From Candidatus Delongbacteria bacterium (GTDB taxonomy: Bacteria > CAIWAD01): DNA of 64,000 bases. The translations under genes were made by a program, and so were the position numbers. Each line of letters starts with the position of its first letter. The first letter of the stretch is position 1. Positions 983-63,378 of this stretch are shown here, piece after piece. The notes under the pieces were generated by a model, which saw only the letters and a list, made by a program, of their open reading frames with translations, was not told where the DNA came from and did no database searches. The stretch is from positions 96,001 to 160,000 of the forward strand of contig OY760505.1 of assembly GCA_963663545.1 (NCBI GenBank), written 5' to 3'.

Positions 983-1734
983 GGATTCTGCTGAGCAATG
1001 ACGATGGTTATCTCGCACCGGGCATTGCGGCTTTGTATCACGAACTTGCAGCGGAGCACGAGCTTCTGGTCAGTGCACCAGCAGGTGAGTGCAGTGCTAC
1101 CGGCCATGGCTTGACACTGCGCGAGCCATTGCGCGTGCGCAAACAGCAGGTGGGCGAGGGCCTTTTCTTTGGTGTTACGGGATTACCCGCCGATGCTGTG
1201 AAGTTTGGTCTGACCGTGCTCTGCGAGGATCGCCGGCCCGACCTGGTTATCTCTGGCATCAATCAGGGCGCCAACACAGGGCAGAACCTTTTTTATTCCG
1301 GTACGGTGGCCGCTGCCGCAGAGGGCGTGCTGGCGGGAGTTCCGGCAATCGCCATTTCGCTCGCGTCCTTCAAACAACGGGATTTCAGTGCGGCCGCCCG
1401 CGTCGCTGCTGGTCTTGTGCGTGAGTTTCAACAGCATCCCCTACCTGCCGATTGTCTGCTGAACGTCAACGTCCCAGAGGGGGAAGAACGGCAGTTCAAA
1501 GGCTATCGCCACGCGCGTATGGGCTATGCCCGCTTTCACGAGGTCTTCTACCGCCGCGAGGATCCCCAAGGGCGTGAATACTTCTGGCTCGATGGTGCGA
1601 AATCCGACCACGACAGTGATCCCGAGAGTGACGACCATTTGGTCCATCAGGGCTGGATCACGCTGACGCCGCTCAAGCTCGATCTGACCCATCCAGAGTG
1701 GAACACTCTGCTGAACTCCTGGAGACTTGGATGA
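979..1734 (+). CDS. surE: 5'/3'-nucleotidase SurE
   Basis: ILLSNDDG, SGINQGANTG, YSGTVAAA and ITLTPL motifs. Confidence 0.95.
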   Translation: MRILLSNDDGYLAPGIAALYHELAAEHELLVSAPAGECSATGHGLTLREPLRVRKQQVGEGLFFGVTGLPADAVKFGLTVLCEDRRPDLVISGINQGANTGQNLFYSGTVAAAAEGVLAGVPAIAISLASFKQRDFSAAARVAAGLVREFQQHPLPADCLLNVNVPEGEERQFKGYRHARMGYARFHEVFYRREDPQGREYFWLDGAKSDHDSDPESDDHLVHQGWITLTPLKLDLTHPEWNTLLNSWRLG

Positions 1735-3278
1735 AGGAAAGCCGCCAGATACTTGTGCTGGACTTCGGCTCGCAGTACACGCAGCTTATCGCGCGCAAAA
1801 TTCGCGAGCTTCACGTTGAAGCCCTGATTCTGCCGTGTGATACAAGCCTGGAGGAGTTGCACAGCTATCAGCCGCGCGGCGTTATTCTCTCCGGTGGTCC
1901 AGATTCAGTGTACGCCGAGGACGCACCGCGCTTGAGTTTCGAGCTCAAGGAGCTGGGGCTGCCCGTGCTGGGTATCTGTTATGGCATGCAGCTGGTGTGT
2001 CACAATCAAGGCGGGCGTGTGGCTCCCGGTGAGGGGCATCGCGAGTACGGTCTGGCCAAGCTTGCCCTGCGCAGCGACGATGCGCTGGTCAAAGGGATGC
2101 CGGAGGAGAGCCAGGTCTGGATGTCACACGGCGACAGTCTGCGTGCGCTTCCGGCGGGATTCGAAATCCTGGCGTCAACGGACAGCATCCCTTTTGCTGC
2201 AGTACATGGGCAGGAACTGCGTTTCTGGGGGGTTCAGTTTCATCCCGAAGTGCACCATTCCATTCACGGGCGCCAACTGCTCGAGAATTTCATTTTCAGC
2301 ATTTGTCGCTGCGAAGCCACCTGGACACCGGGCCGCTTCGTCGAGCGGCAGATCATGCAGATCCGTGCCCAAGTCGGCGGTAGTGCCAAGGTAATCTGTG
2401 GCGTTTCCGGCGGCGTGGACTCCACCGTGGCGGCCGCGCTGATTCATCGCGCCATCGGTCGCGATCTGACCTGCATCTTCGTTAACAATGGTCTGCTGCG
2501 CGCTGGCGAGTACGAAGCCGTGCAGCACATGTTTCGCGATAATCTGCAGATCAACCTGGTGGCAGTGGATGCCAGCGAGCTCTTTCTGGGGAGACTGAAA
2601 GGCATCAGCGAGCCCGAGCAGAAGCGCAAGATCATTGGTCACACCTTCATCGATGTTTTCGAGCAGGAGGCGGCCAAGCTCAAAGACGTGGAGTTCCTTG
2701 CTCAGGGAACGCTTTACCCGGATGTGATCGAGAGCGTGCAGCAGAAGGGGCCCAGCCAGACCATTAAAACGCACCACAATGTGGGCGGTTTACCCGCGCG
2801 ACTCAACTTCAAGCTCATCGAACCTTTGCGTGAGCTATTCAAAGATGAAGTACGTTCGGTAGGGGAAGAACTGGGGCTCCCGCATTCGATGCTGTGGCGC
2901 CATCCCTTCCCGGGGCCGGGGCTGGGAATTCGCATTCTGGGCGCCGTAACCGCAGAGCGCGTCGCCGTTCTGCAGCAGGCTGATCAGATTCTACTGGACG
3001 CCTTGCGTGAGAGCGGTTGGTATGATCGCTGCTGGCAGGCGCTGGCGGTGCTCCTGCCTGTGAGCAGTGTGGGCGTAATGGGCGACCAACGCACCTATGA
3101 AAATGTATTGGCGCTGCGCGTGGTGGACAGCACCGATGCTATGACGGCTGATTTTTCGCGACTCCCCTGGGAACTGCTAGGCCAAATCGCCAATCGAATC
3201 ATCAACCAGGTGACAGGCATCAATCGAGTTGTCTACGATATCAGTTCCAAACCACCCGCAACCATCGAGTGGGAATAA
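1731..3278 (+). CDS. guaA: GMP synthase (glutamine-hydrolysing)
   Basis: LDFGSQYTQLIAR, GICYGMQ, QFHPEV, SGGVDS, IKTHHNVGGLP and KPPATIEWE; ATG at 1731 overlaps the surE stop (ATGA). Confidence 0.97.
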   Translation: MKESRQILVLDFGSQYTQLIARKIRELHVEALILPCDTSLEELHSYQPRGVILSGGPDSVYAEDAPRLSFELKELGLPVLGICYGMQLVCHNQGGRVAPGEGHREYGLAKLALRSDDALVKGMPEESQVWMSHGDSLRALPAGFEILASTDSIPFAAVHGQELRFWGVQFHPEVHHSIHGRQLLENFIFSICRCEATWTPGRFVERQIMQIRAQVGGSAKVICGVSGGVDSTVAAALIHRAIGRDLTCIFVNNGLLRAGEYEAVQHMFRDNLQINLVAVDASELFLGRLKGISEPEQKRKIIGHTFIDVFEQEAAKLKDVEFLAQGTLYPDVIESVQQKGPSQTIKTHHNVGGLPARLNFKLIEPLRELFKDEVRSVGEELGLPHSMLWRHPFPGPGLGIRILGAVTAERVAVLQQADQILLDALRESGWYDRCWQALAVLLPVSSVGVMGDQRTYENVLALRVVDSTDAMTADFSRLPWELLGQIANRIINQVTGINRVVYDISSKPPATIEWE

Positions 3279-3304
3279 TCTGAACCGGAACCAGGAGAGG
3301 AAGC

Positions 3305-5125
3305 ATGTGCGGAATTGTTGGCTACATCGGAAAGAAGGATGCAATCCCCTTCCTGCTTGAGGGTTTGAAGCGCCTTGAGTACCGCGGATACGATTCCGCC
3401 GGCGTTGCCACTCTCAAGGAAGAGCTGGAAGTAATCAAGACCAAGGGCAAGATCAAAGACCTCGCCCGTCTGATTCCACTGCAGCACCACGCAAACGTGG
3501 GCATCGGCCACACGCGCTGGGCGACTCACGGAGAGCCAAGCACCATCAACGCTCATCCGCACGTAGCCGGTGAGGGCCGGCTCGCGCTGATTCATAATGG
3601 CATCATTGAGAATTACGCCACGCTGCGCGAGGAGCTTAAGCAGCAGGGCGTGACTTTTGTTAGCCAGACCGATACTGAGGTCCTCGCTCACTTGGTCAAT
3701 TTCTTTTACAAGGGCGACCTGGTCGCCGCCGTCCGCGAGGCACTGAGCCGCGTTGAGGGTGCCTACGGAATCGCCGTCTTGCATCGTGATCATCCGGACA
3801 TGATTGTCGTGGCACGCATGGGATCGCCGTTGTTGATCGGTTTGGGCGACGGCGAGAACTACATCAGCTCGGACAAGAACGCGCTTCTGGGACACAGTCA
3901 GCGCATGGTGATTCTTGAGGATGGCGAACTGGCCATCGTCACCGCTGATCGCGTAGATATCAGCACTTCCGATTCGCAAGTAGTTGAGCGCGACATCGTG
4001 GAGTTGGAAGAGGAACTCGAGAGCATTGATAAGGGTGAGTTTGCCCACTACATGCTCAAGGAAATCTTCGAACAACCCCGTACGATTAGCGACGCCTATG
4101 CAGGCCGTCTGCTGCCCGAAGAAGGTGGTGTGCGTCTAGGCGGACTGGGAACCGTAACCGAGCAGCTACTCAATGCGGAGCGTATCATCCTGACCGCATG
4201 TGGAACCAGTTGGCATGCGGCCATGGTTGCCGAGTATTTCATGGAAGAGTATCTGCGCGTGCCCGTTGAAGTGGAATACGCCAGTGAATTCCGCTACCGC
4301 AATCCGGTGCTGGACCGCAACACGGTTGTCATCGCCATCAGCCAGTCCGGTGAAACAGCCGACACCCTGGCTGCCATGAAGGAGGCCAAGCGCAAGGGCG
4401 CGCTTGTGCTGGGTATCTGCAATCGAGTTGGTAGCGCCATTGCACGTGAGAGCGAAGCCGGTGTCTATATTCACGCAGGACCCGAAATCGGCGTTGCTTC
4501 CACAAAGGCCTTCACCAGCCAGCTTGTGGTTCTGTTGCTGCTGACCATTCATCTGGCGCGACTGCGCAATATGGGCTACAACATGGGCCGCCAGTTGGTG
4601 GATGAATTGCGCAAACTGCCGGAAAAGGTGGAGCAAATCCTTGCCCAGTCAGCGGAGATAGCGCGCATCGCCAAGGATCTGGCGCATCACCAGAACGCCC
4701 TGTATCTGGGCCGCGGCTTGTTCTATCCCACCGCTTTGGAGGGTGCGCTCAAGCTCAAGGAGATCTCCTACGTCCATGCAGAGGGCTACCCGGCTGCAGA
4801 AATGAAGCATGGGCCGATCGCTCTGATCGACGAACAAATGCCGGTCGTGGTCATCGCCCCGCTGGATGACAACTACGACAAGGTGGTCTCGAATATTCAG
4901 GAAGTGCGCGCGCGCAAAGGCAAGGTGCTTGTCATTGCCACCCAGCTTGACCACAAGCTGCGCGAGCTGGCTCACGAAGTGATTCAGATCCCCGACGCCC
5001 ATCCCACTGTGATGCCCATTCTGGCGGTGATTCCGCTGCAGTTGCTCGCCTACTATATCGCCGTCGAGCGTGGCTGCGATGTGGACCAGCCACGCAATCT
5101 GGCCAAGAGCGTTACGGTGGAGTAA
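3305..5125 (+). CDS. glmS: Glutamine--fructose-6-phosphate aminotransferase
   Basis: MCGIVG N-terminus, LEYRGYDSAG, GHTRWATHG, SQSGETADT and C-terminal PRNLAKSVTVE. Confidence 0.98.
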   Translation: MCGIVGYIGKKDAIPFLLEGLKRLEYRGYDSAGVATLKEELEVIKTKGKIKDLARLIPLQHHANVGIGHTRWATHGEPSTINAHPHVAGEGRLALIHNGIIENYATLREELKQQGVTFVSQTDTEVLAHLVNFFYKGDLVAAVREALSRVEGAYGIAVLHRDHPDMIVVARMGSPLLIGLGDGENYISSDKNALLGHSQRMVILEDGELAIVTADRVDISTSDSQVVERDIVELEEELESIDKGEFAHYMLKEIFEQPRTISDAYAGRLLPEEGGVRLGGLGTVTEQLLNAERIILTACGTSWHAAMVAEYFMEEYLRVPVEVEYASEFRYRNPVLDRNTVVIAISQSGETADTLAAMKEAKRKGALVLGICNRVGSAIARESEAGVYIHAGPEIGVASTKAFTSQLVVLLLLTIHLARLRNMGYNMGRQLVDELRKLPEKVEQILAQSAEIARIAKDLAHHQNALYLGRGLFYPTALEGALKLKEISYVHAEGYPAAEMKHGPIALIDEQMPVVVIAPLDDNYDKVVSNIQEVRARKGKVLVIATQLDHKLRELAHEVIQIPDAHPTVMPILAVIPLQLLAYYIAVERGCDVDQPRNLAKSVTVE

Positions 5126-6711
5126 TGATGCTCATACTGCGAACCCCACTCGTCCTTTTGCTTGCACTGGTGCTGTTCTGCTCTGCAGGTGCTGCGCAGG
5201 AGCTCCGGCGAACGGTCAATGCGATTCGACTGGGGGAATCCCCGGAGCTGATTCAAACCCTTGTCGAGCAGGGGCAGGCGGCGGCGGGAGCTGACGCAAG
5301 TTCCTGGGATCTGCTAGAGTTGTGGCTGTGTTTGCAGCAGACGCCCGGAGCGGATTTTCAGTTTGCCTGGGAGCGTTATCATCGCAACTGGCCGCGTAGT
5401 CGCTATCTGGGATATGCCGATTACCTTCGTGCACAGAATTTTTTAGTGACGGAAGAGATACACGCTGGCGTGCGTCAGCTGCTCGAGCTCCAGAGCAGCC
5501 CCGAGCCCGCCCTGGCAGACCGCGCCGGACGATTGCTGGATCGGGTGCTGGAGGAGTCACTGGGCCGCGAGGCAATTGGCGCGCTTTCCCGCGAATACAC
5601 GCAAGGTGACGCGTGCAGGCAATGGCTGGACAACTGGCTGCAGACCCACAATCTACACTTTCGTCTGGCTGCCATTTTGCCGCTCAAGGGTGTCGACGCC
5701 GCCCTTGGACACCGATATCTCGCTGGCATGGAAACGGCCCTGGCGCTGGCCGACAGCAGCCTCGGCGCGTGGTCGCTTGAAGTTCACGATTGCGAATCGG
5801 ACCCGTTACGGGCACGGCAACAGGCGCACCAGATCGAAGCCGAAGGTGGCGTCGATTGTGTGCTGGTCCCAGGGGCACCGGTATATGCGGCTGCAGTGGC
5901 GGGTTGTTTGAGTCTACCCGTGCTTTTCCCCTGGTACGAGGGCGACAACCTGCTGGAAGCGGACCCCGACTTCTACCAGTTGAATTCGCGTCCCCGAACC
6001 CGTGCGGCGGCAATGGCGGACCTGGCCGTTGACAGTCTGCATGTAAAGCGCGTGATCACTCTGGCTCCCGCCACACGAAGTGGAAAACAGCTTGTGGACA
6101 GCCTTAGTACGCGCCTCATCGAACTGGATCCGGAAGTAGAGCTTGGGCCACCGCAGTGGTATTTCCCCGGTGCACAAGACATGCGCCGCCAGCTTGAAAA
6201 CCTGTCGATTTATGAGACAGCCTTCGATTCCCTGGATGCGGTGGTTGTTTTCTCGCGTCCGGAAGATGTGGCTGTGCTGGTACCGCAATTGGCCTATGCC
6301 GATCTGCAATGCACTGTGCTGGGCGATGCTTCGCTGATTAGTGCGCGGGATATCAAGGAACTGGGCACATTGTCCGACCAGCTGCTGGTTGTCAGCGACT
6401 GGTTGCCCAATCCGCGCAAGGCGGTGTGGGGCAGCTTCCTGGAAGAGTTTCGTCGTCGTGAGATGCGCAGCCCCGAGCTTGAAGAACAGCTGGCTTTTGA
6501 AAGCACGCGTCTGGCAACAGAAGTGGCTGAGCTGGCGCGGCGTTCCGGCGGCACATTTCGCAATTGCCTGGACACTGCCGATTTGCCTTCTGCATACGGT
6601 GGACGCATGATGCTGCGTGCGCGCAGCAATGGTCATTTATTGCTTCTACGTTGGGATGGCTGGGCTTTTCGCGCCATCGGTGGTATGGAGTTACAAGGGA
6701 TTGAGCGCTAA
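5125..6711 (+). CDS. Exported protein with helical N-terminus and type 1 periplasmic-binding-protein-like domain (LppC/LpoA-like)
   Basis: Signal peptide; C-terminal half begins LAAILPLKG...G...LAGMETAL, typical of PBP1-family domains; start overlaps glmS stop. Confidence 0.55.
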   Translation: MMLILRTPLVLLLALVLFCSAGAAQELRRTVNAIRLGESPELIQTLVEQGQAAAGADASSWDLLELWLCLQQTPGADFQFAWERYHRNWPRSRYLGYADYLRAQNFLVTEEIHAGVRQLLELQSSPEPALADRAGRLLDRVLEESLGREAIGALSREYTQGDACRQWLDNWLQTHNLHFRLAAILPLKGVDAALGHRYLAGMETALALADSSLGAWSLEVHDCESDPLRARQQAHQIEAEGGVDCVLVPGAPVYAAAVAGCLSLPVLFPWYEGDNLLEADPDFYQLNSRPRTRAAAMADLAVDSLHVKRVITLAPATRSGKQLVDSLSTRLIELDPEVELGPPQWYFPGAQDMRRQLENLSIYETAFDSLDAVVVFSRPEDVAVLVPQLAYADLQCTVLGDASLISARDIKELGTLSDQLLVVSDWLPNPRKAVWGSFLEEFRRREMRSPELEEQLAFESTRLATEVAELARRSGGTFRNCLDTADLPSAYGGRMMLRARSNGHLLLLRWDGWAFRAIGGMELQGIER

Positions 6712-7517
6712 TGCTGGAAGCAATCATACTGGGCATTGTCCAGGGACTCACTGAGTTTCTGCCCATCTCCAGTTCTGGACATTTGGTGCTGGGACAAGAG
6801 CTGCTGGGGGTTCTGGATCACGGATCCAAGGACGTGCTCTTCGAGGTCGTTCTTCATCTAGGAACGCTGGTCGCCGTGCTCGTCGCCTTGTGGCGTGACG
6901 TGCTCCGTTTGTTGCAAGCGCTTCTGCCTGGAAAACCGCAGGAAAAAGCGCCTGCGCGCAAGCTGATCTTGTGGATTTTCCTTTCGACCCTTCCCACCGG
7001 GCTCATCGGTTTTCTGCTGCGCGACCAGTTTGAGGCAGCCTTCACGCGGCCCTGGTTCGTCTCGGCCATGTTGTTGGTAACGGCGAGCATTCTGTTCATT
7101 GGCGATCGATTGCCGCGAAAGAACGTAGTGGCCGAAGAGCTCGGTCCCTTGCGCTCGCTATGGCTGGGAATCGCACAATCGCTTGCCATTCTACCCGGTG
7201 TCAGTCGCAGTGGAACAACTATTGTGGCGGGGATTGCCGCTGGCGCGAAGCCAGAAGAAGCCGCCCGTTACAGTTTTCTGATATCGATTCCCGCAGTACT
7301 GGGTGCTTTGGTATTGGAGTTGCCAGATCTGTTTGCTGGCACGGCCGCGCTGCGCTACAGCTCCATGGAGCTCCTCGTTGGATTTGCGGCCGCCGCCGTT
7401 GTGGGCTATCTGGCTTTGCAGTGGCTATTAGTGGCGGTACGCAAGCGCAACTTGAGCTGGTTCGCGCTTTACTGTGCCGTTGTTGGAGTGGTCGCTCTGA
7501 TCTGGAGCCTGAGCTGA
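6711..7517 (+). CDS. uppP: Undecaprenyl-diphosphate phosphatase
   Basis: LGIVQGLTEFLPISSSGHL and AILPGVSRSGTT motifs; multiple TM segments. Confidence 0.95.
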   Translation: MLEAIILGIVQGLTEFLPISSSGHLVLGQELLGVLDHGSKDVLFEVVLHLGTLVAVLVALWRDVLRLLQALLPGKPQEKAPARKLILWIFLSTLPTGLIGFLLRDQFEAAFTRPWFVSAMLLVTASILFIGDRLPRKNVVAEELGPLRSLWLGIAQSLAILPGVSRSGTTIVAGIAAGAKPEEAARYSFLISIPAVLGALVLELPDLFAGTAALRYSSMELLVGFAAAAVVGYLALQWLLVAVRKRNLSWFALYCAVVGVVALIWSLS

Positions 7518-8311
7518 TGCGTCCGCTAGTTGGAATCAGTCCCGAACGCGATGCCAGCCCGGAGCGCGAATTCAAGGCCGGCTGGGTGCTTGAATTGCTC
7601 ATCGATGAGTATGCGCACATGATCGCTCAGGCGGGCATGCAGCCCATCGTACTCAGTTCCGCAGCTGGTGTAACCGAGGAGCTGCTGGCACCCTTGGATG
7701 CAGTTGTCCTTTCCGGTGGTAGCGACCTTGATCCCAGCTATTGGAATGAGAAGCCTTTGCCGCCTGATCAGGGCGGTATCAATCTGATCGATACGGATAA
7801 TGTTGAGCGCACAGCCTTCGAACATCATTTGGTGCTGGGATGTCTGCGTCGTGGTATTCCCATGCTGGGAATTTGTCGTGGCTTGCAGCAACTCAACGTA
7901 AGTCTGGGCGGCAGTCTAGTGCAGGATCTGGAAGTGCAACGCGGTATCAGCGGCCATTATGAACGATTGAATCCCTGCCGGCTCGTGCACAATGTTTCTG
8001 CTGTTGTCGGTTCACCCTGGCCGAGCGAGCTGGAGACCACCTTTGCTGTTACCAGTACGCATCACCAGGCTGTTGATCGACCTGCCCGGGGACTGCGTGT
8101 GCTGGCGTGTGACACACAGGATGGCCTGATCGAGCTTCAGGAGCGCGATTCCGACTACGGACCTCTTTGCGAAGGAGATCGTGGCGCGCTGGTGTTGGCC
8201 ACGCAGTGGCATCCCGAGCGAATGGTCGGAAGTCCTAGCACGCAATGGCTGTTGGCGCGCTTATACAAGGCGGCAGCGGAAAGGGCAGAAGCACGGAGGA
8301 CCGGGGAGTGA
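7517..8311 (+). CDS. Gamma-glutamyl-gamma-aminobutyrate hydrolase family (peptidase C26, class I glutamine amidotransferase)
   Basis: LSGGSDLDP, GICRGLQ nucleophile elbow, THHQAV and QWHPE; start taken at ATG 7517 overlapping the uppP stop. Confidence 0.85.
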   Translation: MRPLVGISPERDASPEREFKAGWVLELLIDEYAHMIAQAGMQPIVLSSAAGVTEELLAPLDAVVLSGGSDLDPSYWNEKPLPPDQGGINLIDTDNVERTAFEHHLVLGCLRRGIPMLGICRGLQQLNVSLGGSLVQDLEVQRGISGHYERLNPCRLVHNVSAVVGSPWPSELETTFAVTSTHHQAVDRPARGLRVLACDTQDGLIELQERDSDYGPLCEGDRGALVLATQWHPERMVGSPSTQWLLARLYKAAAERAEARRTGE

Positions 8312-9312
8312 ACGCAATTCCCGGCGAGGGCGAGATTCGCGCCGGCAAGCTGGCACCCATTTACTTCCTGCACGGTGAAGAGGAGTACTTGCTGGAGGCA
8401 CAGCGAAAGCTCTTTTTCGACAACGTCGTTGACGAGAGCTTGGCGGCCTTCAATCGGGACAGCTTTCACGCGGAGGATCTGAAAGGCGAGGAGCTCTTTC
8501 GCCTTGCGGCCTCCTTTCCCATGATGGCCGAACGGAGGCTGGTACTCGTGCGCGGCTTGGAACGCGCATCGGCATCGCTGCTGGATCAGCTGTTGGTCTA
8601 CGTCGAAAACCCCAGTGAGACGACCTGTCTGGTCTTGTGCGCAGGCAAGGTGGATATGCGCAAAAAGACCTTCAAGACCCTGAAGGCAAAGACGCAAAGT
8701 CACGAGTACACCCGCCTGAAGGTGGATGAACTGCCGCAGTGGATGATCGCGCATCTGCAGCAGGCCGGATTCACCCTCACACGTCAGGATAGCCTGGTGT
8801 TGGCTGGACAGCTTGAGGGCGCCCCTTTGCGCATGGTCGTGGGCGAGCTGGACAAACTGATGCTGTTGGCGGAAGGCCAAGGACGCAGCCAGATCAATAG
8901 CGAGGATCTGGCTTGTGCGCTGGGCGTCGATGCCGAGGCAAGCCCTTTTCATTTTGCCGACGCGCTACTGGCGCGCAATCAGCGTGGCGCATTAGCGATT
9001 CTGAAACAGTTGCAAAACCGTCCCGACAGCGTGTACATCGTGTTGCCCACTCTGCATCGCAGCTTTGGACGACAGTGGTACATTGCAGGCATGAAACAAC
9101 GCGGAATGGGCTCCAAAGAAATCGCCGAGGGACTTGGTCTGACGGCATGGCAAGTGCGGGGTGCAATGACCCACACTGCGCGCTGGACTAGTTCTTCGCT
9201 GGCGCAGGCTTGTGACCTGCTGCTTGAGGCGGATTTTGCGGTAAAGGGCGGAAGTCCATTGAGTAGTAATGTGATCCTGACCAAACTGGTACTTGACTTA
9301 TGCCGGACCTGA
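8308..9312 (+). CDS. holA: DNA polymerase III delta subunit
   Basis: PIYFLHGEEEYL, SFPMMAERRLVLV, ELDKL and C-terminal EADFAVKGG; GTG start at 8308 after GGGGAG. Confidence 0.88.
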   Translation: MNAIPGEGEIRAGKLAPIYFLHGEEEYLLEAQRKLFFDNVVDESLAAFNRDSFHAEDLKGEELFRLAASFPMMAERRLVLVRGLERASASLLDQLLVYVENPSETTCLVLCAGKVDMRKKTFKTLKAKTQSHEYTRLKVDELPQWMIAHLQQAGFTLTRQDSLVLAGQLEGAPLRMVVGELDKLMLLAEGQGRSQINSEDLACALGVDAEASPFHFADALLARNQRGALAILKQLQNRPDSVYIVLPTLHRSFGRQWYIAGMKQRGMGSKEIAEGLGLTAWQVRGAMTHTARWTSSSLAQACDLLLEADFAVKGGSPLSSNVILTKLVLDLCRT

Positions 9313-9878
9313 AGGACAAAAGCGACGAGCAACTGGTGCTGGAGCTGCAGCAGGGGCGCATAGAGTATTACGACGTTCTGGTGGAACGCTACCAGCATCG
9401 GCTCTTTGGCTACCTCATGCAACTGGTTCGCGATCAGCAGTTGGCGGAGGACCTGCTACAGGAGACCTTTATCAGGCTCTACCAGCACTACAATAGCTAT
9501 CGCCCCATCGCCAAGTTCTCTACCTGGATTTACACCATTGCCACTAACCTGGTACGCAGCCACATGCGCCGACGCATGAAAATGACGACTGTGGACCTGG
9601 AACCGCGAGAAGCGGGTGACCGGCCCATTGAGTTGGCGGATGATGCCCCGGCAGTGGACGAGCTCGTTATGGGCCGCATGACAGTAGAGGCAGTGCGCGA
9701 TGCCATGGAGAAGCTGCCCGAGGAGTTTCGCCAAGTCATAATCCTGCGGGAGATCGAGGAACTTTCTTACGACGAAATTGTTGAAATCCTAAATCTGCCC
9801 CTTGGGACGGTGAAAAGCCGTATCAATCGTGCCAGGGGACGCCTGAAGGAACTGCTGGCGAAGGATTACAGGGAGTGA
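9300..9878 (+). CDS. ECF sigma-70 factor
   Basis: AEDLLQETF and FSTWIYTIATN (region 2); LSYDEIVEILNLPLGTVKSRINRAR (region 4). Confidence 0.93.
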   Translation: MPDLKDKSDEQLVLELQQGRIEYYDVLVERYQHRLFGYLMQLVRDQQLAEDLLQETFIRLYQHYNSYRPIAKFSTWIYTIATNLVRSHMRRRMKMTTVDLEPREAGDRPIELADDAPAVDELVMGRMTVEAVRDAMEKLPEEFRQVIILREIEELSYDEIVEILNLPLGTVKSRINRARGRLKELLAKDYRE

Positions 9879-9882
9879 TGCG

Positions 9883-10386
9883 ATGATGAAATGCAAGAAA
9901 GTTCGTGAAGAAGTCTGGGATTGGCTGATTGACGGCGATGACCATCCTGAAGCACAGGAAATCAAAGGCCACCTTGATCAGTGTAAAGGCTGCAGCAATG
10001 ATCGCCAGCAAGTGGAGTGCATCAAGGGTGTGCTGCACGAGTTGGGTGATCGCGCGCCGAGCAACCTGCACGAGCGATTGCACGCACGCATCCAGCAGCT
10101 CGATCAGGAAGCGCATTCGCAAGCGCGGACACGCGGAACAGGATGGCAGCGCTGGCTACGTCCAGCAGCGTATCTCGCTAGTGGCGCGGCGGCGGTTTTA
10201 GTTGTCGGTTTGTTTGTCGCCCCCCAGCAGCCCACTTCGATCCTGCCGGGAGCGAGCGGTGTTATTGCCGAGCGCCAATACAACGAGAACGACAGTCTGA
10301 ATGCCGCACCCCATGACCCCGCCCTGGAGGATGCTGCGCGCCTACAGGCCGTCAGTAGCCCGTCTTTGGAAAGCGGCGGGAATTGA
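9883..10386 (+). CDS. Zinc-binding (ZAS) anti-sigma factor
   Basis: HxxxCxxC (HLDQCKGC), one TM segment, directly downstream of the ECF sigma. Confidence 0.8.
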   Translation: MMKCKKVREEVWDWLIDGDDHPEAQEIKGHLDQCKGCSNDRQQVECIKGVLHELGDRAPSNLHERLHARIQQLDQEAHSQARTRGTGWQRWLRPAAYLASGAAAVLVVGLFVAPQQPTSILPGASGVIAERQYNENDSLNAAPHDPALEDAARLQAVSSPSLESGGN

Positions 10387-10458
10387 AGTATCTTCCAAGC
10401 CTTGTAATAAGTGGGTGAACGCTTCACCCACTTCTACTCAAGGCTGTGGAGGACGCAC

Positions 10459-11172
10459 ATGAAGGGCATCATCCTCGCCGGTGGTACCGGATCCCGCCTG
10501 CACCCCCTTACCAAAGTCACCAACAAGCATTTACTGCCCGTAGGCCGCGAGCCCATGATTTTTCACCCCGTACGCAAGCTGACGGAAGCCGGCATCAGCC
10601 AGATTCTGATCGTAACGGGCGTGGAACACATGGGCGATGTGGTCAACCTGTTGGGCAGTGGCCGTGACTTCGGCTGTCAGTTTACCTACAAGGTGCAGGA
10701 CGAAGCGGGAGGAATCGCACAGGCGTTGGGCTTGGCGGAGGAGTTTGTTGGCAGCCAGCGCATGGTGGTTCTGCTGGGCGACAACATCTTTGCCGATTCA
10801 TTGAAGTCGGTCGTCGATACCTTCGAAAACGAAGAAGCCGAGGCGCGCATCCTCTTGCGCCGAGTTCCCGATCCGGGACGCTATGGCGTGGCAGAAGTGG
10901 CCGGCGATCGTATTCTCTCCATTGAGGAAAAACCCGCTCATCCCAAGTCAGACCTGGCGGTGACCGGCGTTTACTTGTATCGTCCCGAGGTCTTTTCCAT
11001 TGTTCGCACGCTAAAACCTTCCGGGCGCGGCGAGTTGGAAATCACCGATGTGAATAACCATTTCATTCAGCGCGGAAGTCTGCGTTGGTCGCAGCTACAA
11101 GGTTGGTGGACCGATGCGGGGACTTTCGACTCGCTAGCATTGGCAAACAAACTTCTTGAGGAACAGGAATGA
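10459..11172 (+). CDS. Sugar-phosphate nucleotidyltransferase (glucose-1-phosphate thymidylyltransferase family, short form)
   Basis: MKGIILAGGTGSRLHPLT, NKHLLPV, LGDN, EEKP, SGRGELEITD and WTDAGT; ATG 10459 after GGAGG. Confidence 0.9.
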   Translation: MKGIILAGGTGSRLHPLTKVTNKHLLPVGREPMIFHPVRKLTEAGISQILIVTGVEHMGDVVNLLGSGRDFGCQFTYKVQDEAGGIAQALGLAEEFVGSQRMVVLLGDNIFADSLKSVVDTFENEEAEARILLRRVPDPGRYGVAEVAGDRILSIEEKPAHPKSDLAVTGVYLYRPEVFSIVRTLKPSGRGELEITDVNNHFIQRGSLRWSQLQGWWTDAGTFDSLALANKLLEEQE

Positions 11173-12470
11173 AGCTCACTGTCATCGGTACCGGATATGT
11201 CGGACTGGTTGCCGGCGTATGCTTTGCCGAAGTAGGCAACGATGTAACATGCGTGGATCTGGACCAGAGCAAGATTGATACCCTGAATCGGGGCGACATC
11301 CCTATTTACGAGCCTGGGCTACGCGAAACACTCGAGCGCGTCGTCCGCATGGGGCGTCTGCATTTCACCACCAGCACCGCTGATGCCATTCCCGGTTCCG
11401 ACGTGGCTTTCATCGCCGTCGGTACACCCCCAGACGAGGACGGAAGTGCTGACTTGCAGCATGTATTGGCAGCCGCAAGGGATATTGCCAGGGCTCAGGA
11501 CGGCTACCTGGTTGTGGTTGACAAGAGCACAGTACCCGTGGGTACCGCCGACAAAGTCCGCGAGGTGATGGCGCGTGAAGCTAAACACGAGTTTGACGTT
11601 GTCTCCAATCCCGAGTTCCTGAAGGAAGGCGCAGCCGTCAACGATTTCCTCAAGCCGGATCGAGTTGTGATCGGTGCCGACAACGAGCGCGCACGCGAGA
11701 TCATGCTGCAGCTCTACGGTCCTTTTGTGCGCACGGGCCATCCCATCATTACCATGGACGTGCACAGTGCCGAGCTCACCAAATATGCGGCCAACAGCCT
11801 GCTGGCAACGAAAATCTCCTTCATGAATGAAATCGCCCGGATCTGTGATCTGGTGGGGGCCAACGTGGATAGCGTGCGTCGCGGCATTGGCAGCGATAGT
11901 CGCATCGGTCCACAATTCCTATTTGCCGGCGCGGGATATGGCGGAAGCTGCTTCCCGAAGGACGTCAAGGCTATTGTCAAGACCTCAAAGAATCTTGGCT
12001 ATGAGTTCGAAATTCTCAATGCGGTCGAAAGCGTTAACGCCAAGCAGAAGCAGATCCTTGTAGACATGGCAAGGAAGACGGCGGGTGCAGATTTGAGCAG
12101 CAAGCGTGTCGTCTTGTGGGGGCTTTCGTTTAAGCCGCGCACCGATGATATGCGTGAAGCTCCCGCACTCGAGATTATCAAGGGGCTACACGAGATGGGT
12201 GCCGAAGTCGTGGCTTGGGATCCCGAGGCCATGAAGGAATGCCGCCGCCGTATTGGCGACACCATTACTTACGCGCCTACGCAATACGACGCTTTGAAGG
12301 ATGCCGATATCCTGATGCTGGTGACAGAGTGGTCGGACTTCCGCGAGCCGGATTTCAGCCGCATCCAGGAGCAGATGCGTGGGCGCCTGGTGCTGGATGG
12401 CCGCAATATCTGGGATCCTGCCAAGATGAAGTCGCTGGGCTTTGAGTATTACAGTATCGGCCGACCCTAG
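11169..12470 (+). CDS. ugd: UDP-glucose 6-dehydrogenase
   Basis: [38 protein letters not shown] and [10 protein letters not shown]. Confidence 0.93.
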
Positions 12471-12479
12471 GAACGCTGC

Positions 12480-13415
12480 ATGAGAATTCTGGTAACAGGT
12501 GGCGCCGGTTTCATCGGTAGCCACCTGTGTCGCCGCCTATTGGCGGATGGACACGAAGTCACTTGCCTGGATAACTTCTTTACAGGCAGCCGCGAAAACG
12601 TACTTCCTCTGCTGGAGGATCACCGCTTTGAACTGGTGCGTCACGACATCACCCAGCCCATTTTGCTGGAAGTGGATCAGATCTATAATCTGGCTTGTCC
12701 GGCATCGCCAGTTCACTACCAGTACAATCCGGTGAAGACCGTGAAGACCAGCGTGATGGGTGCCATCAACATGCTGGGGCTGGCAAAACGAGTACACGCG
12801 CGCATTCTACATAGCTCCACCAGCGAGGTCTACGGCGACCCGAAAGTGCATCCGCAGACGGAGGATTACTGGGGCAATGTAAATCCCATAGGCCTCCGAT
12901 CGTGCTACGATGAGGGCAAGCGTGTTGCTGAAACCCTGATGTTTGACTACCACCGTCAGAACAAGGTGGATATTCGTGTCATTCGCATCTTCAATACGTA
13001 TGGACCGCGCATGGCGCTCAACGACGGTCGCGTTGTTTCCAACTTTATTCTGCAGGCGCTGCGCGGAGAAGATATTACCGTCTACGGCGAGGGGCAGCAG
13101 ACGCGCAGTTTCCAATACGTGAGCGATCTGATCGAGGCGATGATTCGCATGATGCGGCAGGATGGTTTTATTGGGCCGGTGAATCTGGGTAACCCTATCG
13201 AGTTCACCATCCTTGAGCTGGCCGAGCTGGTGATCGAGATGACCGGAAGCGCGTCACGCATTCGCCACGAGCCACTCCCCGGTGATGACCCCAAGGTGCG
13301 CAAACCGGATATCAGCCTGGCTCGCGAAAAATTGAACTGGGAGCCCGAGGTTCAACTGCGCGAAGGGCTGTCCAAGACCATCGCCTACTTCGAGGACCAA
13401 CTGACACGAGCATGA
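12480..13415 (+). CDS. UDP-glucuronate decarboxylase (UDP-xylose synthase family)
   Basis: [53 protein letters not shown] and DGRVVSNFI. Confidence 0.9.
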
Positions 13416-16161: not shown

Positions 16162-16221
16162 TACAATACTACCTGCCGCAGAGCGTAGCCCTTTTTGTAC
16201 ATCTTCGGTACTTTAGTAAGT

Positions 16222-43873: not shown

Positions 43874-43887
43874 TTTTCCTCCTTGAG

Positions 43888-49407: not shown

Positions 49408-50186
49408 CCGCGAATGATACCCCGTTCTGACGCAGTAATGAAGGCATGGATCAGGCGTGCGTCCTCGTCCATCTCCACCAGCCCGGCCAATTCGGCCAGT
49501 GCCAGGCTGACATTCTGGCTGTTCTTGCCGAAGAACAGCCGGTACATACGCTTGATACGGCGCTGACGTTCCGCGTCGAATCCCCGCCGCGCCAAGCCGA
49601 CGGAATTGAGCCCGCAGTAGCGCAAGGGATTATCGTTGGCCATGATGTAGGGGGGCACATCCTTGCCGACTGCGGTAGCGCCGCCGATGAAGGCATGACT
49701 GCCGATGCGCACGAATTGATGCGCGACACTGGTGCCACCCATGATCACGTTGTCGCCCACTTTGACATGGCCTGCGAGCTGCACGCCGTTAGAGAAAATG
49801 CAGCCGTCGCCGATCTGGCAATCGTGGGCAACGTGTACGTAGGCCATCAAGAGGCAGCCAGCGCCGACTCGTGTCACAAGCGCTTCTTCCGTAGCACGGG
49901 CAAGGGTCACATACTCGCGTATCACGGTGCGCGCGCCTACTTCCAGGCTGGTCTCTTCGCCGTGATACTTCAGATCCTGTGGAAGACAACCGACGGAAGC
50001 GGCGTGATACACCTGCACTTCAGCACCAAGGCGTGATCCCCAGCAGATCTGCGCCTGCGGTCCGATGCGGCAGCCGTCGCCCAGCACCACGTTGTCTTCG
50101 ATGACCGCGTAGGGACCGATTTGCACATCCTTGCCCAGCTGCGCCCCGGGATCAATGACCGCACTGGGGTGGATCAGCGGATTCAT
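49404..50186 (-). CDS. lpxA: UDP-N-acetylglucosamine O-acyltransferase
   Basis: IHPSAVID hexapeptide repeats, PQDLKY, HVAHDC, LAGHV, HQFVRIG and GLNSVGL.RRGF. Confidence 0.96.
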   Translation of the reverse strand: MNPLIHPSAVIDPGAQLGKDVQIGPYAVIEDNVVLGDGCRIGPQAQICWGSRLGAEVQVYHAASVGCLPQDLKYHGEETSLEVGARTVIREYVTLARATEEALVTRVGAGCLLMAYVHVAHDCQIGDGCIFSNGVQLAGHVKVGDNVIMGGTSVAHQFVRIGSHAFIGGATAVGKDVPPYIMANDNPLRYCGLNSVGLARRGFDAERQRRIKRMYRLFFGKNSQNVSLALAELAGLVEMDEDARLIHAFITASERGIIRG

Positions 50187-61649: not shown

Positions 61650-61659
61650 TTGTGATCCA

Positions 61660-63378
61660 TCAAAACCGGGTCAGCAGTCGCAGGTGCAGCATTCCGCGAC
61701 TCAGTTTCGTGCTTTCGCCCAGTGCGTACTGTAGCTCAAGTTGTCCACCGGCCGCCGGCAGTACCAGGGCCACTCCGCGCCCATGAGTTCGCTGATTGGT
61801 CGCCGACGGCGTGTTCCAGATCAGACTGTCCCAAAACACGGCAACACGGCTGCGCGGCCCAAGCAGGTAGCGTAGCTCGAGTTGACCTAACAGCCAGGAC
61901 TCGGCAAACAGCGATTGCTCGCGCCATCCGCGCGGACCAGCAGTGCCGCCCAAAGTAAAAAACTCATCCACGGGTAGAGTGCCGTCCCCACTCAATAGTC
62001 CCCCGCCCAGACTTGGCTGAAGCACTACACGTGGCCTCAGCGGATACCAGAGCTTCAGCCGCATCTGTTGCCGGTTCAGCGTACTTGATTCTCCCAGCGG
62101 AGGCAGGTTTTTGTACTCTTTCGTCTGGCGTTGAATACGCTCCCAGCCCAGCGAAGCCATCCAGCCCAGACGCGGATTTCGCGGATCATCACGTCGATCA
62201 GCCTCGATACCACCTCCCAGAACCAGGCTACTGGAACGGTCCACTCTGCGCATGACGCGCCCATTCAGGCTGTCCGGCAGTACTTCCTGCTGATAAAGGG
62301 ACGCCGACAGACTGAGCCATAACAGCAGGTCATAGTCCAGCTCGATACCCGCCGAGCGTTTCAGCCAAGAACTATCCTGGATCTGCTGCCGCATCTCCAG
62401 CGAGGCCGCCAGCGGTTGCCCGAAGAGAAAGGGCTCACGGTACTTGAACTGCAATTCCTGTGATACACCGTCGGGGCGGCTTCCTAGAAGATTCAGCCGA
62501 CGCCCGGTTCCCAGAATGTTATCCAGGTCGAGTTGCAGATGGAAAGCGAAGCGGCTGCCTTTCTCGTCCGTATCCGGAATCAATCCCGCCATGCCGTCAA
62601 AATGGTAGGCGGGTAGTTCGTCTAGCTCGACCAGGACGAGTTCGCCCTCAGGGCCACGGCACAGAGTAGGCCCCTGCACCTGCTGGAACCAGCCCGTTGC
62701 CAACAGACGGCGATTTGCATCACGCGCTCGCACCGGATCCCAGCGCATGCCCTCCTTGAGACGACTCAGGCGCAGCAGTGTTGACTCACGACTCATCTTC
62801 TGTCCGCGAAAGAGAACGCGCTGCAATAGCACCGGGTCGATGTGACTGAGCTGGAAATCCAGTTCCAGGCTAAGATCCTCGCCTGCGGGCCACAGACGCA
62901 TTTCACGCAGGCTGAGTGTGCTTAGGGCGCGGCCTTCTTGTTCGAGGTGATACAAGATCTCGTCGATTGCCTGCAGGAGCCGCGCTCCGTTTACGGGGCG
63001 TCCCTCACGGAACCAGCGTGATACAGGCGGAAAGTCGACCGGAGCACCGTCGATCTTTACGCGTCCCAGCAGGAGTTGCTTCCCCTCGTCCAGAGTGAGA
63101 GACACGATGCGCAGGGTGTGCTCGGCTGCGCAGACACTGTCCACATGTAAACTGCAGAAAGGATAACCCTCTACGGCGTAGACATCCAGCAGACTGTCTC
63201 CCAGGGCCAACCATTCGGATTGACTCATTGTATCACCGGCATGCAGCAATTCCCGCAGGCGGGATGTGCTGAAGTACTTACTACCCGTGATACGCAGGTC
63301 CGCGTTGACCGTGATACTCGACGCGAAGACCCCGTTCAGGACAATCAACATGAAGACTATGTGATACAGCATGCGCAT
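61660..63378 (-). CDS. BamA/TamA (Omp85) family outer membrane protein
   Basis: POTRA-like segments, NILGTGR, LGG..PRGW and C-terminal Phe. Confidence 0.75.
   Translation of the reverse strand: MRMLYHIVFMLIVLNGVFASSITVNADLRITGSKYFSTSRLRELLHAGDTMSQSEWLALGDSLLDVYAVEGYPFCSLHVDSVCAAEHTLRIVSLTLDEGKQLLLGRVKIDGAPVDFPPVSRWFREGRPVNGARLLQAIDEILYHLEQEGRALSTLSLREMRLWPAGEDLSLELDFQLSHIDPVLLQRVLFRGQKMSRESTLLRLSRLKEGMRWDPVRARDANRRLLATGWFQQVQGPTLCRGPEGELVLVELDELPAYHFDGMAGLIPDTDEKGSRFAFHLQLDLDNILGTGRRLNLLGSRPDGVSQELQFKYREPFLFGQPLAASLEMRQQIQDSSWLKRSAGIELDYDLLLWLSLSASLYQQEVLPDSLNGRVMRRVDRSSSLVLGGGIEADRRDDPRNPRLGWMASLGWERIQRQTKEYKNLPPLGESSTLNRQQMRLKLWYPLRPRVVLQPSLGGGLLSGDGTLPVDEFFTLGGTAGPRGWREQSLFAESWLLGQLELRYLLGPRSRVAVFWDSLIWNTPSATNQRTHGRGVALVLPAAGGQLELQYALGESTKLSRGMLHLRLLTRF

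What the first reader, a model, noticed from the sequence alone, without database searches (positions are those of the whole stretch)
1035..63367. Highly iterated heptamer GTGATAC/GTATCAC (degenerate palindrome GTRWYAC) across the window
Seen: by eye I count about 61 exact copies, roughly 41 GTGATAC and 20 GTATCAC on the + strand. Examples: 1035, 1837, 14385, 14723, 14919, 16158, 29047, 29094, 30717, 30763, 30977, 36094, 36198, 38197, 38212, 49919, 49962, 50004, 60204, 60368, 60392, 62947, 63018, 63230, 63287, 63311, 63361. There are also many GTGACAC/GTGTCAC and GTAACAC/GTGTTAC variants, often flanked as Y...R (TGTGATACA). A rough mononucleotide expectation at an assumed 60% GC is about 6 copies, so enrichment is roughly tenfold. 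Copies occur in different reading frames, in intergenic DNA and in both orientations. Known: dispersed over-represented words include cyanobacterial HIP1 (GCGATCGC), Neisseria/Pasteurellaceae uptake sequences and E. coli matS (GTGACRNYGTCAC); this word equals none of them, though it resembles a matS half-site. Inference: a lineage-specific genomic signal (nucleoid-organising protein site, methylation-linked iterated motif or uptake sequence) that I do not recognise as described.
Basis: partly seen in the sequence, partly recalled or inferred. Interest (0 to 1): 0.85.

Follow-up and report, generated by a model that had tools for sequence, protein, structure and literature searches.

The report
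Hyper-abundant DNA word GTGATAC
A seven-letter DNA word, GTGATAC, occurs about once every 750 letters across this uncultured bacterium's chromosome and in most of its relatives; it resembles the 'self' words known from DNA-uptake sequences and the cyanobacterial HIP1 word, but its purpose here has not been shown.

Summary
The window holds 62 copies of GTGATAC (41 on +, 21 on -) against 3.5 expected. Inside genes there are 51 against 9.7 +/- 2.9 in codon-preserving shuffles. It is the commonest 7-mer in the window. Genome-wide there are 4,934 copies, 17-fold over a motif-masked null. Copies fall in all five stop-free frames, at similar coding and intergenic density, with no strand polarity.

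The whole family GTRWYAC is enriched, with consensus YGTGATACA. The word is found across the phylum but varies: 2- to 13-fold in seven of the eight relatives sampled by k-mers, and none in one nested genus. One genus adds a GTATAC dialect. Sites are not conserved in position (3 of 169), avoid conserved residues, and inflate the encoded tripeptides 1.8-fold. Non-native DNA lacks the word.

The best reading (about 0.4) is a USS/DUS/HIP1-like self word kept up by a continuing whole-word fixation bias, probably linked to DNA uptake and recombination. No candidate gene tracks the word: C5 methylase, Vsr, a conserved N6/N4 methylase, the pilus cluster, ComEC, DprA, RecBCD/AddAB. This scan already noted the word elsewhere in this genome (e1-1522067). 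I found no paper reporting it.

The parts
1035..63367 (.). All 62 exact copies of GTGATAC/GTATCAC in the window
   Evidence: Starts, + strand word GTGATAC: 1837, 14385, 14919, 15850, 16158, 18793, 29047, 29094, 29652, 29934, 31158, 32472, 32671, 33568, 36094, 36198, 36419, 38197, 38212, 40439, 42414, 45066, 46894, 49962, 50004, 50544, 50625, 51155, 53342, 54768, 56076, 59270, 60204, 60368, 60392, 62460, 62947, 63018, 63287, 63311, 63361. Starts, - strand: 1035, 14266, 14723, 18293, 19640, 26952, 28916, 30717, 30763, 30977, 31513, 33843, 34665, 34916, 38160, 41219, 47433, 49919, 54363, 56647, 63230. With the variants GTRWYAC there are 107 sites.
1844..14265 (.). 12.4-kb stretch without any exact copy (6 family variants only), in ordinary housekeeping genes of normal GC and GC3
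   Evidence: the gap is among the 15 longest in the genome; GC 0.577; glmS, uppP/bacA, holA, a sigma/anti-sigma pair, nucleotide-sugar genes. GC3 0.61-0.70, which is typical. The syntenic stretch of G002 is also poor (4 family words in about 11.7 kb against 30 in the next 17.6 kb). That of G004 is not. Unexplained.
16158..16164 (+). Copy whose internal TGA is the stop codon of the gene 15010-16161 (nucleotidyl transferase)
   Evidence: Genome-wide, 47 of 1,101 TGA stops lie in GTGATAC, the commonest context.
31158..31164 (+). Copy whose TGA is the stop codon of the dihydroorotate dehydrogenase gene 30247-31161
38197..38203 (+). Copy whose TGA is the stop codon of the short-chain dehydrogenase gene 37367-38200; part of a cluster of 4 family words at 38138-38218
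49871..50010 (.). Cluster of 4 family words (3 exact copies) inside the lpxA-like gene 49404-50186
63230..63367 (.). Cluster of 4 exact copies in the 5' part of the Omp85-family gene 61660-63378 (7 copies in this gene)

Best explanation
GTGATAC (consensus YGTGATACA; tolerated variants GTRWYAC) is a DNA-level 'self' word of this small, uncultured phylum. Its abundance is not inherited site by site. It is replenished continuously by a process that favours fixation of any mutation completing the whole word, wherever the protein or intergenic DNA tolerates it. The most likely source of that bias is sequence-preferring DNA uptake and/or recombination during natural transformation. Under that model, fragments carrying the word are taken up or recombined more often, so the word spreads by molecular drive, as with USS in Pasteurellaceae, DUS in Neisseriaceae and, per recent reports, HIP1 in cyanobacteria. 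Shown here: the word is real, DNA-level, lineage-wide, turning over, absent from non-native DNA, and strong enough to alter protein sequences. Inferred: that the bias acts through uptake or recombination. The recognising protein is unknown. My confidence in the descriptive part is about 0.95. The 0.4 given below is for the uptake/recombination mechanism.
For: (1) Whole-word, DNA-level enrichment. There are 4,934 copies, 17-fold over a motif-masked Markov null and 6-fold over synonymous shuffles. All five stop-free frames are used about evenly: 712/688/705 and 921/1,217. Density is 1.35/kb in coding and 1.13/kb in intergenic DNA. (2) Asymmetric consensus but equal numbers on both strands (2,507/2,427), and 53% on the leading strand although 79% of genes are co-oriented with replication. 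USS and DUS show this combination. (3) The one-mutation neighbours form a graded, matrix-like profile: positions 1, 2 and 7 strict, positions 3-6 tolerant. No single neighbour is strongly depleted, as expected if a protein reads the whole word. (4) Turnover. At aligned orthologous sites the relative has the same word in 0 of 25, 2 of 22, 0 of 35, 1 of 41 and 0 of 46 cases. In the nested genus g6 the word has decayed to O/E 0.8-1.6. (5) Behaviours listed for uptake sequences in the abstract of Findlay and Redfield 2009 are met. Encoded tripeptides are inflated 1.76-fold (7,264 against 4,117). Tyr-His ranks first of 400 dipeptides. Sites lie at poorly conserved residues (22 of 169 identical windows against a 22.7% background). 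Non-native DNA lacks the word: 10 copies in the last 155 kb, which carries a second, 40%-identical xseA. (6) Dialects follow phylogeny, as in Frye 2013 (abstract). The G003+G001 clade shifts to GTATAC (1,798 sites against 128 control) and GTGACAC. (7) The transformation core is encoded in G000: a type IV pilus cluster with secretin, PilB and PilT, plus ComEC, DprA and a ComEA-like gene.
Against: There are no uptake or transformation data, and the organism is uncultured. Every competence gene tested is equally present in the motif-free genus g6, including each gene of the collinear pilus cluster. No gene loss therefore explains the loss of the word. The core is only 7 bp with weak flanks, shorter than USS or DUS. 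The word is not enriched in intergenic DNA and does not form inverted terminator pairs (within 100 bp: 381 same, 176 divergent, 144 convergent). Spacing is overdispersed, with long native gaps (75 gaps over 5 kb against 6.5 expected). The family is a degenerate palindrome, and the G003 dialect GTATAC is a perfect 6-bp palindrome. That is the typical shape of sites read by dimeric proteins or type II methyltransferases. All behaviours under (5) would follow from any whole-word drive, not only from uptake.
Confidence: 0.4

Rival explanations
1. The word is the binding site of an abundant chromosomal protein (nucleoid structuring or condensation, as Xu et al. 2018 proposed for HIP1). Selection keeps up a density of sites, not particular sites.
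For: The family GTRWYAC is a degenerate palindrome of the GT-N3-AC type, and G003 uses GTATAC, which fits a dimeric reader with half-sites GTR/YAC. Coding and intergenic DNA have the same density and all frames are used evenly, which looks more like a set density than like filling of the least constrained DNA. Density falls 1.4-fold from origin to terminus (rho -0.57).
Against: Long native stretches have no copy (12.4 kb in this window; 75 gaps over 5 kb against 6.5 expected), and spacing is overdispersed (index 1.34). Periodicity at 10-90 kb is not significant against a block-shuffle null (p = 0.16). A whole genus does without the word. No candidate protein is identified.
Confidence: 0.2
2. 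HIP-like, methylation-linked word: an orphan methyltransferase marks the word, and the mark (not uptake as such) is what selection or repair acts on.
For: A beta-class N6A/N4C methyltransferase of unknown specificity is conserved in all 12 genomes of the phylum. The GTATAC dialect looks like a type II site. Per the abstracts, HIP1 is read by two methylases and acts in a methylation-dependent way.
Against: That methylase is as well conserved in the motif-free genus (61-70% identity) as in motif-rich G002 and G004 (66-68%). C5 methylases occur in 5 of 12 genomes and Vsr in 4 of 12, without relation to the word, and Vsr is absent from G000. Type I and Dam-class enzymes are scattered. The favoured word is not a palindrome. 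No modification data could be obtained.
Confidence: 0.15
3. A context-specific mutation or very-short-patch repair bias creates the word, as Vsr/Dcm does for CCWGG.
For: Variants linked to the word by transitions at positions 3 and 5 are also enriched 4- to 6-fold. That would suit G:T or A:C mismatch intermediates.
Against: No Vsr in G000 or in family f2. No single precursor word is strongly depleted; non-family neighbours have O/E 0.64-2.3. A bias at one position cannot build a 7-bp word from all sides. The hybrid GTGATAC outnumbers both perfect palindromes GTGWCAC and GTAWTAC (4,934 against 1,994 and 539), the opposite of repair towards a palindromic methylation site.
Confidence: 0.07
4. A Chi-like recombination hotspot read by RecBCD or AddAB.
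For: The HIP1 preprint (abstract) suggests a Chi-like effect for another hyper-abundant word. G000 encodes RecC and RecB.
Against: There is no replication polarity (53% leading), whereas GCGGTGG-type words in the same genome, such as GCTGGTGG, are 73% polar. The same GTGATACA is enriched in family f1, which has RecC in 9 of 9 genomes, and in family f2, which lacks RecC in 3 of 3 and has an AddAB-like pair. Genus g6 keeps RecC without the word.
Confidence: 0.04
5. By-product of codon usage or peptide composition, of a dispersed repeat element, or of assembly or base-calling error.
For: Density depends on GC3 (1.87 to 0.79 per kb across quintiles). The genome is a single-contig metagenome assembly.
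Against: Synonymous shuffles give 6-fold fewer copies. Intergenic density is similar. There is no information beyond one base on either side, so it is not a REP or MITE. The word recurs in separately assembled relatives. Contigs of four runs from two studies reproduce window 26501-46500 with 0 differences in all long pieces.
Confidence: 0.01

Closest known systems
DNA uptake sequences: USS of Pasteurellaceae and DUS of Neisseriaceae (abstracts of Findlay and Redfield 2009, PMC2817400, and Frye et al. 2013, PMC3630211, read; Treangen 2008, PMC2397512, seen in listing only)
   Same: About one copy per kb, with an asymmetric word found equally on both strands. Present in coding DNA in several frames. 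Encoded peptides roughly doubled. Placed at poorly conserved residues. Lacking in foreign DNA. Shared by related species, with dialects that follow phylogeny. Competence genes are present.
   Different: The core is only 7 bp (USS 9 bp plus flanks and DUS 10-12 bp are lengths I recall, not from a call). The tolerated variants form a degenerate palindrome. There is no intergenic or terminator preference. Frames are used evenly instead of following preferred codons. Uptake preference is untested, and competence is unknown in this phylum.
HIP1 (GCGATCGC) and alternate HIPs of cyanobacteria (abstracts of Xu et al. 2018, PMC5861425; Rodriguez-Cruz et al. 2026, PMC13756078; Kamoku and Nielsen 2024 preprint; Elhai 2015, PMC4390886, abstract start and a term search only)
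   Same: A phylum-wide hyper-abundant short word in all frames. Some lineages have lost it and others use an alternative word. The function is long unresolved, and a link to transformation is under discussion.
   Different: HIP1 is a perfect GC-rich palindrome containing known methylase sites. Its sites are reported as positionally conserved and 10-90 kb periodic. Here the word is asymmetric, sites are not conserved at genus-level distance (3 of 169), periodicity is not significant, and no methylase tracks the word.
Chi sites and KOPS (polar words; properties recalled, not from a call)
   Same: Short over-represented words read by DNA-processing machines.
   Different: Those are strongly skewed to the leading strand. 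This word is 53% leading and does not follow the RecBCD/AddAB split.
matS/MatP of enterobacteria
   Same: The family member GTGAC.. resembles a matS half-site, and the window happens to span the replication terminus.
   Different: 0 full matS sites and no MatP gene in G000. The word is spread over the whole chromosome and is slightly rarer near the terminus.

Membership tests
DNA uptake sequences (USS/DUS) | Competent cells take up or are transformed by DNA carrying the word in preference to DNA without it | not testable with these tools
DNA uptake sequences (USS/DUS) | Hundreds to thousands of copies, about 1 per kb, both orientations, throughout the native genome | tested here: met
   4,934 copies, split 2,507/2,427; 1 per 754 bp
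DNA uptake sequences (USS/DUS) | Shared by related species, with dialects that follow phylogeny | tested here: met
   Both families of the phylum carry GTGATACA. The G003+G001 clade shifts to GTATAC and GTGACAC. There is one nested loss.
DNA uptake sequences (USS/DUS) | Lacking in recently acquired DNA; located at poorly conserved residues; encoded peptides inflated about 2-fold | tested here: met
   non-native 140-155 kb; 13% against 22.7%; 1.76-fold; Tyr-His ranks first
DNA uptake sequences (USS/DUS) | Transformation machinery encoded, and its presence follows the word | tested here: inconclusive
   Present in G000, but equally in the motif-free genus: ComEC 11 of 12, secretin 11 of 12, PilB/T 12 of 12, DprA 12 of 12, and the pilus cluster is collinear gene for gene.
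HIP1-type highly iterated palindromes | Perfect palindrome | tested here: not met
   GTGATAC is not its own reverse complement and its flanks are asymmetric. Only the degenerate family GTRWYAC, and the G003 dialect GTATAC, are palindromic.
HIP1-type highly iterated palindromes | Cognate orphan methyltransferases whose presence follows the word | tested here: not met
   C5 methylase in 5 of 12 and Vsr in 4 of 12, unrelated to the word. The conserved N6/N4 enzyme is in 12 of 12, including motif-free genomes. Type I and Dam-class enzymes are scattered. Enzyme specificities are unknown.
HIP1-type highly iterated palindromes | Sites conserved in position between species | tested here: not met
   Same word at 3 of 169 aligned comparisons. 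Note that the relatives are distant (about 52% amino-acid identity), so conservation over shorter spans is not excluded.
HIP1-type highly iterated palindromes | Periodic distribution at 10-90 kb | tested here: not met
   The best period is 68.5 kb, which is nominally above a bin-shuffle null. However, 16% of 500 block-shuffles reach it.
Chi-like hotspot | Orientation bias with replication, and dependence on the RecBCD or AddAB type | tested here: not met
   53% leading. The word is the same in the RecBCD family and the AddAB family.
matS/MatP | 13-bp palindrome confined to the Ter region, with a MatP gene | tested here: not met
   0 full sites; no MatP
REP/MITE-type dispersed repeats | Conserved sequence or hairpin beyond the core | tested here: not met
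   Information content is about 0 beyond positions -1 and +7.
VSP-repair-driven word (Dcm/Vsr type) | Vsr with a cognate C5 methylase, and a depleted T-for-C precursor word | tested here: not met
   No Vsr in G000; no strongly depleted neighbour

The most novel reading that the evidence does not exclude
GTGATAC is the uptake/recombination 'self' word of a whole uncultured phylum. That would be an independent origin of sequence-specific transformation outside Proteobacteria and Cyanobacteria. Its genus-level dialects include a change of half-site spacing (GTATAC), and one recent complete loss would allow the recognising factor to be found by comparing sister genomes.
Probability: 0.35. Interest if true: 0.8.

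Novelty: new variant of a known kind. Interest (0 to 1): 0.62.

Why it matters
Only a few lineages are known to write a short self word thousands of times into their genomes: Pasteurellaceae, Neisseriaceae and cyanobacteria. How such words arise and what reads them is still debated. This case adds a phylum with three natural contrasts:
- a very strong user (17-fold);
- a sister genus that has lost the word completely while keeping all known competence genes;
- a clade that has shifted to a word with a different spacing.

These contrasts are what is needed to find the reader protein by comparative genomics, and to test whether uptake, methylation or chromosome structure is the cause.

There are also practical uses. 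The word marks native against foreign or mis-binned DNA in assemblies of this phylum. It also distorts codon usage, peptide content and even stop-codon contexts, which matters for annotation and for models of sequence evolution.

Tried and rejected
1. Polarising gains and losses with close relatives. The metagenome scan with the window's TPR protein found no close relative (best 38% amino-acid identity, 42 loci, none enriched).
2. Natural variation. Four runs from two studies hold the stretch, but every long piece is identical to the window (0 differences). The lower word shares of X3 and X4 reflect patchy coverage, not divergence, so no polymorphism test was possible.
3. Gene-content correlates of the word. 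All of the following were non-discriminating: C5 methylase, Vsr, N6/N4 methylase, type I and Dam-class methylases, ComEC, secretin, PilB/T, DprA, ComEA-like HHH, pilin N-methyl domain, RecC, PDDEXK nucleases, and gene-by-gene comparison of the pilus cluster.
4. A replacement word in the motif-free genus. None was found in 467 kb of G005 or 226 kb of G006; the top words there are CAGCAG-type words at 2- to 4-fold, which are also common in the other genomes.
5. GC content as the cause of the loss. G006 (66% GC) has O/E 0.8, but G004 (67% GC) has 8.8.
6. GC3 as the cause of the window's 12.4-kb gap. Its genes have ordinary GC3.
7. Inverted pairs, helical phasing and periodicity. None was found.
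8. Density against protein conservation among the 52 window ORFs. The correlation is weak and not significant (rho -0.22, p = 0.12).
9. Naming the taxon. The genome-contig scan with methylmalonyl-CoA mutase returned only distant phyla at 70-78% identity.
10. GCGCGCAG, the runner-up word in the window, is only 2-fold enriched (22 against 10.6).

Full report
**Observation**

The window holds 62 exact copies of GTGATAC counted on both strands, 41 as GTGATAC and 21 as GTATCAC on the + strand. Dinucleotide-preserving shuffles give 3.5 +/- 1.8, and none of 100 reaches 62.
- Codon-preserving shuffles of the 50 called window genes give 9.7 +/- 2.9 copies (maximum 22 of 500) against 51 observed inside genes. 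For the family GTRWYAC they give 28.4 +/- 4.9 against 91.
- No other 7-mer compares. GTGATAC is first by raw count in the window. It is also first of all 7-mers in the genome by Markov-3 O/E (7.7). It is followed only by its own shifted versions and family members, and unrelated words reach about 2.1-2.4.

**Genome-wide anatomy**

The window is G000:C1:96001-160000 of a single 3,721,866-bp contig of 56.7% GC.
- The genome has 4,934 copies, one per 754 bp, split 2,507/2,427 between strands.
- With the family masked out of the null, the native 3.56 Mb holds 4,923 copies against 291-297 expected, or 17-fold.
- Only the bases next to the core carry information. Position -1 is C 42%, T 31%, A 5%; position +7 is A 64%, G 22%. 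The consensus is the asymmetric YGTGATACA, and nothing further out is conserved, so it is not a REP or MITE.
- All members of GTRWYAC are enriched: GTGATAC 4,934, GTGACAC/GTGTCAC 1,994, GTGTTAC/GTAACAC 1,155, GTAATAC/GTATTAC 539, together 8,622. The hybrid GTGATAC far exceeds both perfect palindromes.
- The other one-mutation neighbours form a graded profile. Positions 1, 2 and 7 are strict and positions 3-6 are tolerant. No single precursor is strongly depleted.

**Relation to genes**

I used a crude gene caller of my own (2,378 genes, 84% of the genome).
- Coding DNA has 1.35 copies per kb and the rest has 1.13.
- All five frames without a stop are used about evenly (712/688/705 for the antisense word, 921/1,217 for the sense word). 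The sixth frame contains TGA and is empty.
- Synonymous shuffles give 701 +/- 25 against 4,243.
- The proteome bears the mark. Tyr-His is the most over-represented of 400 dipeptides (1,177 against 743), and 827 of them are spelled TATCAC although TAT is the minority codon. The 31 tripeptides that the word encodes are inflated 1.76-fold overall (7,264 against 4,117).
- The word's TGA serves as the stop codon of 47 of 1,101 TGA-ending genes, the commonest context. With the family variants, 108 of 2,377 genes end inside such a word. Three window genes end in GTGATAC itself (15010-16161, 30247-31161, 37367-38200), and 60771-61649 ends in the variant GTGACAC.
- Density falls with GC3, from 1.87 to 0.79 per kb across quintiles.

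**Distribution along the chromosome**

- Cumulative GC skew places the terminus at genome position 130,000, about window 34,000, where the genes also converge. The origin is near 1.95 Mb.
- The word is 53% on the leading strand although 79% of genes are co-oriented with replication. By contrast, GCTGGTGG is 73% and TGGAGGAG 93% leading in the same genome.
- Neighbouring copies show no preferred orientation (within 100 bp: 381 same, 176 divergent, 144 convergent) and no phasing.
- Spacing is overdispersed, with 75 gaps over 5 kb against 6.5 expected.
- Periodicity at 10-90 kb is not significant against a block-shuffle null (p = 0.16).
- Density declines 1.4-fold from origin to terminus.
- One of the longest gaps lies in this window (1844-14265). 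It covers ordinary housekeeping genes of normal GC and GC3. The matching stretch is also poor in G002 but not in G004. I cannot explain it.
- The last 140-155 kb of the contig has GC 0.46-0.49 and only 10 copies. It carries a second xseA that is 40% identical to the native copy, so it is non-native DNA or a chimeric join.

**Relatives**

The held collection has 12 genomes of this phylum, in two families. My attempt to verify the name failed.
- Whole-genome counts of the word against its reversed control: G000 4,934/168, G002 3,176/133, G004 1,870/68, G003 1,032/102, G001 539/61, G009 1,515/189, G010 1,563/117, G011 911/106 (67% complete).
- In genus g6 the counts are 226/43, 79/48, 62/88 and 188/32.
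- 19 genomes of other phyla are at background.
- GC ranges from 51% to 71%, so I also computed Markov-2 O/E on fetched DNA: G002 12.8, G004 8.8, G003 6.9, G010 4.1, G009 2.2, G001 2.1, G005 1.6, G006 0.8. GTGATACA is the top 8-mer in both G009 and G010.
- G003 carries a second word, GTATAC, at 1,798 sites against 128 for the control. G002 (488/123) and G001 (320/82) show it weakly, and G000 (213/193) not at all. G001 prefers GTGACAC.
- No replacement word was seen in 467 kb of G005 or 226 kb of G006.
- A tree was built from 7 pilus-cluster proteins (2,558 columns, 10 genomes; G007 and G011 were not fetched). It gives ((G009,G010),((G003,G001),(G004,G000,(G002,(G006,(G005,G008)))))) with full support for all but one fork.
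- The loss in g6 is therefore a single derived event inside the word-rich clade, and the shifted dialects form one clade.

**Turnover**

The relatives are 65-78% identical in DNA and about 52% in protein. Of the 57 copies in the 52 window ORFs that I listed, those that align without gaps carry the same word in the relative in 0 of 25 (G002), 2 of 22 (G004), 0 of 35 (G003), 1 of 41 (G001) and 0 of 46 (G005) cases. Three-residue windows at the word are identical to the relative in 22 of 169 cases (13%) against 22.7% for all other windows (p about 0.002; the relatives are not independent). The word is thus renewed continuously and settles where proteins are free to vary.

**Search for the machinery**

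None of the gene families tested follows the word.
- C5 methylase is in 5 of 12 genomes and Vsr in 4 of 12. Vsr is absent from G000, and both are absent from family f2 and G004.
- A beta-class N6A/N4C methylase is in 12 of 12. It is 54-70% identical to G000's in the 9 relatives where I recovered it, including 61-70% in g6.
- Type I and Dam-class enzymes are scattered.
- ComEC is in 11 of 12, secretin in 11 of 12, PilB/T in 12 of 12 and DprA in 12 of 12.
- ComEA-like and pilin genes are in 5 of 5 genomes tested.
- Every gene of the collinear pilus cluster has an orthologue in g6.
- RecC is in 9 of 9 genomes of family f1, including g6, and in 0 of 3 of family f2, which has an AddAB-like pair instead. 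Both families share the word.
- There is no MatP and no full matS site.

**Reading**

A codon or peptide effect, a repeat element, an assembly artefact, Chi/KOPS, matS and a Vsr-type repair bias are each contradicted by a direct test.

What remains is a whole-word fixation bias that acts on native DNA of the lineage. The behaviours found are those listed for uptake sequences in the abstracts of Findlay and Redfield 2009 and Frye et al. 2013:
- peptide inflation;
- placement at poorly conserved residues;
- absence from foreign DNA;
- dialects that follow phylogeny;
- an asymmetric word without strand bias.

The abstracts of recent HIP1 papers move that word towards the same function. I therefore rank uptake/recombination-linked drive first (about 0.4). 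A chromosomal binding-site reading comes next (0.2), then a methylation-linked one (0.15).

- the 7-bp core is short;
- there is no intergenic preference;
- native DNA has long gaps;
- the family has a palindromic shape;
- all competence genes persist in the genus that lost the word.

**Novelty**

Full-text searches found no paper containing GTGATAC or GTATCAC as a word. One irrelevant paper combined GTATAC with over-representation. Elhai 2015 makes no mention of GTATAC (term search). The 21 papers naming Delongbacteria do so only in passing (listing). This scan noted the same word before in another window of this genome (e1-1522067) and a motif-free patch elsewhere (e1-354012). I re-tested the first claim independently and found a second such patch.

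Noticed in passing
window about 32000-36000 (genome position 130,000): The replication terminus lies in the window. Cumulative GC skew peaks here and the genes switch from the + strand to the - strand. No dif site was looked for.
   Followed up: partly
G000:C1:3,580,000-3,721,866 (outside the window): About 140 kb of GC 0.46-0.49 with almost no copies of the word. It carries rnfC, a second xseA (40% identical to the native one at 176.6 kb), sigma-54 activators, a type I hsdM and an IS66-like transposase. It is either a large foreign island or a chimeric join in the assembly.
   Followed up: partly
G005 (5 or more places, e.g. C29:3450-4091) and G006 (C65:140769-141404, C37:66840-67475): The motif-free genus carries several copies of an ORF of about 875 aa with an N-terminal Dam-class (D12) methylase domain. 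G000, G002 and G004 have only weak hits. This is a gain that coincides with loss of the word; its meaning is unknown.
   Followed up: no
whole genome G000: The palindromes GGGCCC, GCCGGC and CGGCCG and their extensions are among the most depleted 7-mers (O/E 0.3-0.4), as are words containing AAGTT/AACTT. This may reflect avoidance of restriction sites.
   Followed up: no
whole genome G000: Strongly leading-strand-biased words exist, such as TGGAGGAG at 93% (227/18) and GCTGGTGG at 73% (563/211). They are candidates for KOPS- or Chi-like signals, but are confounded by the 79% co-orientation of genes.
   Followed up: no
phylum-wide: Family f1 encodes RecBCD (RecC in 9 of 9 genomes). Family f2 lacks RecC (0 of 3) and has a pair of AddAB-like ORFs of about 970-1,100 aa.
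   Followed up: partly
window 1844-14265: A 12.4-kb run of core genes without one exact copy, with normal GC and GC3, partly shared with G002. Together with the patch of note e1-354012, motif-poor native stretches seem to include nucleotide-sugar and envelope genes.
   Followed up: partly
window 38561-38633 (- strand): The window's single tRNA gene (Rfam 71.9 bits). Many unrelated contigs pile up on it in the read lay.
   Followed up: no
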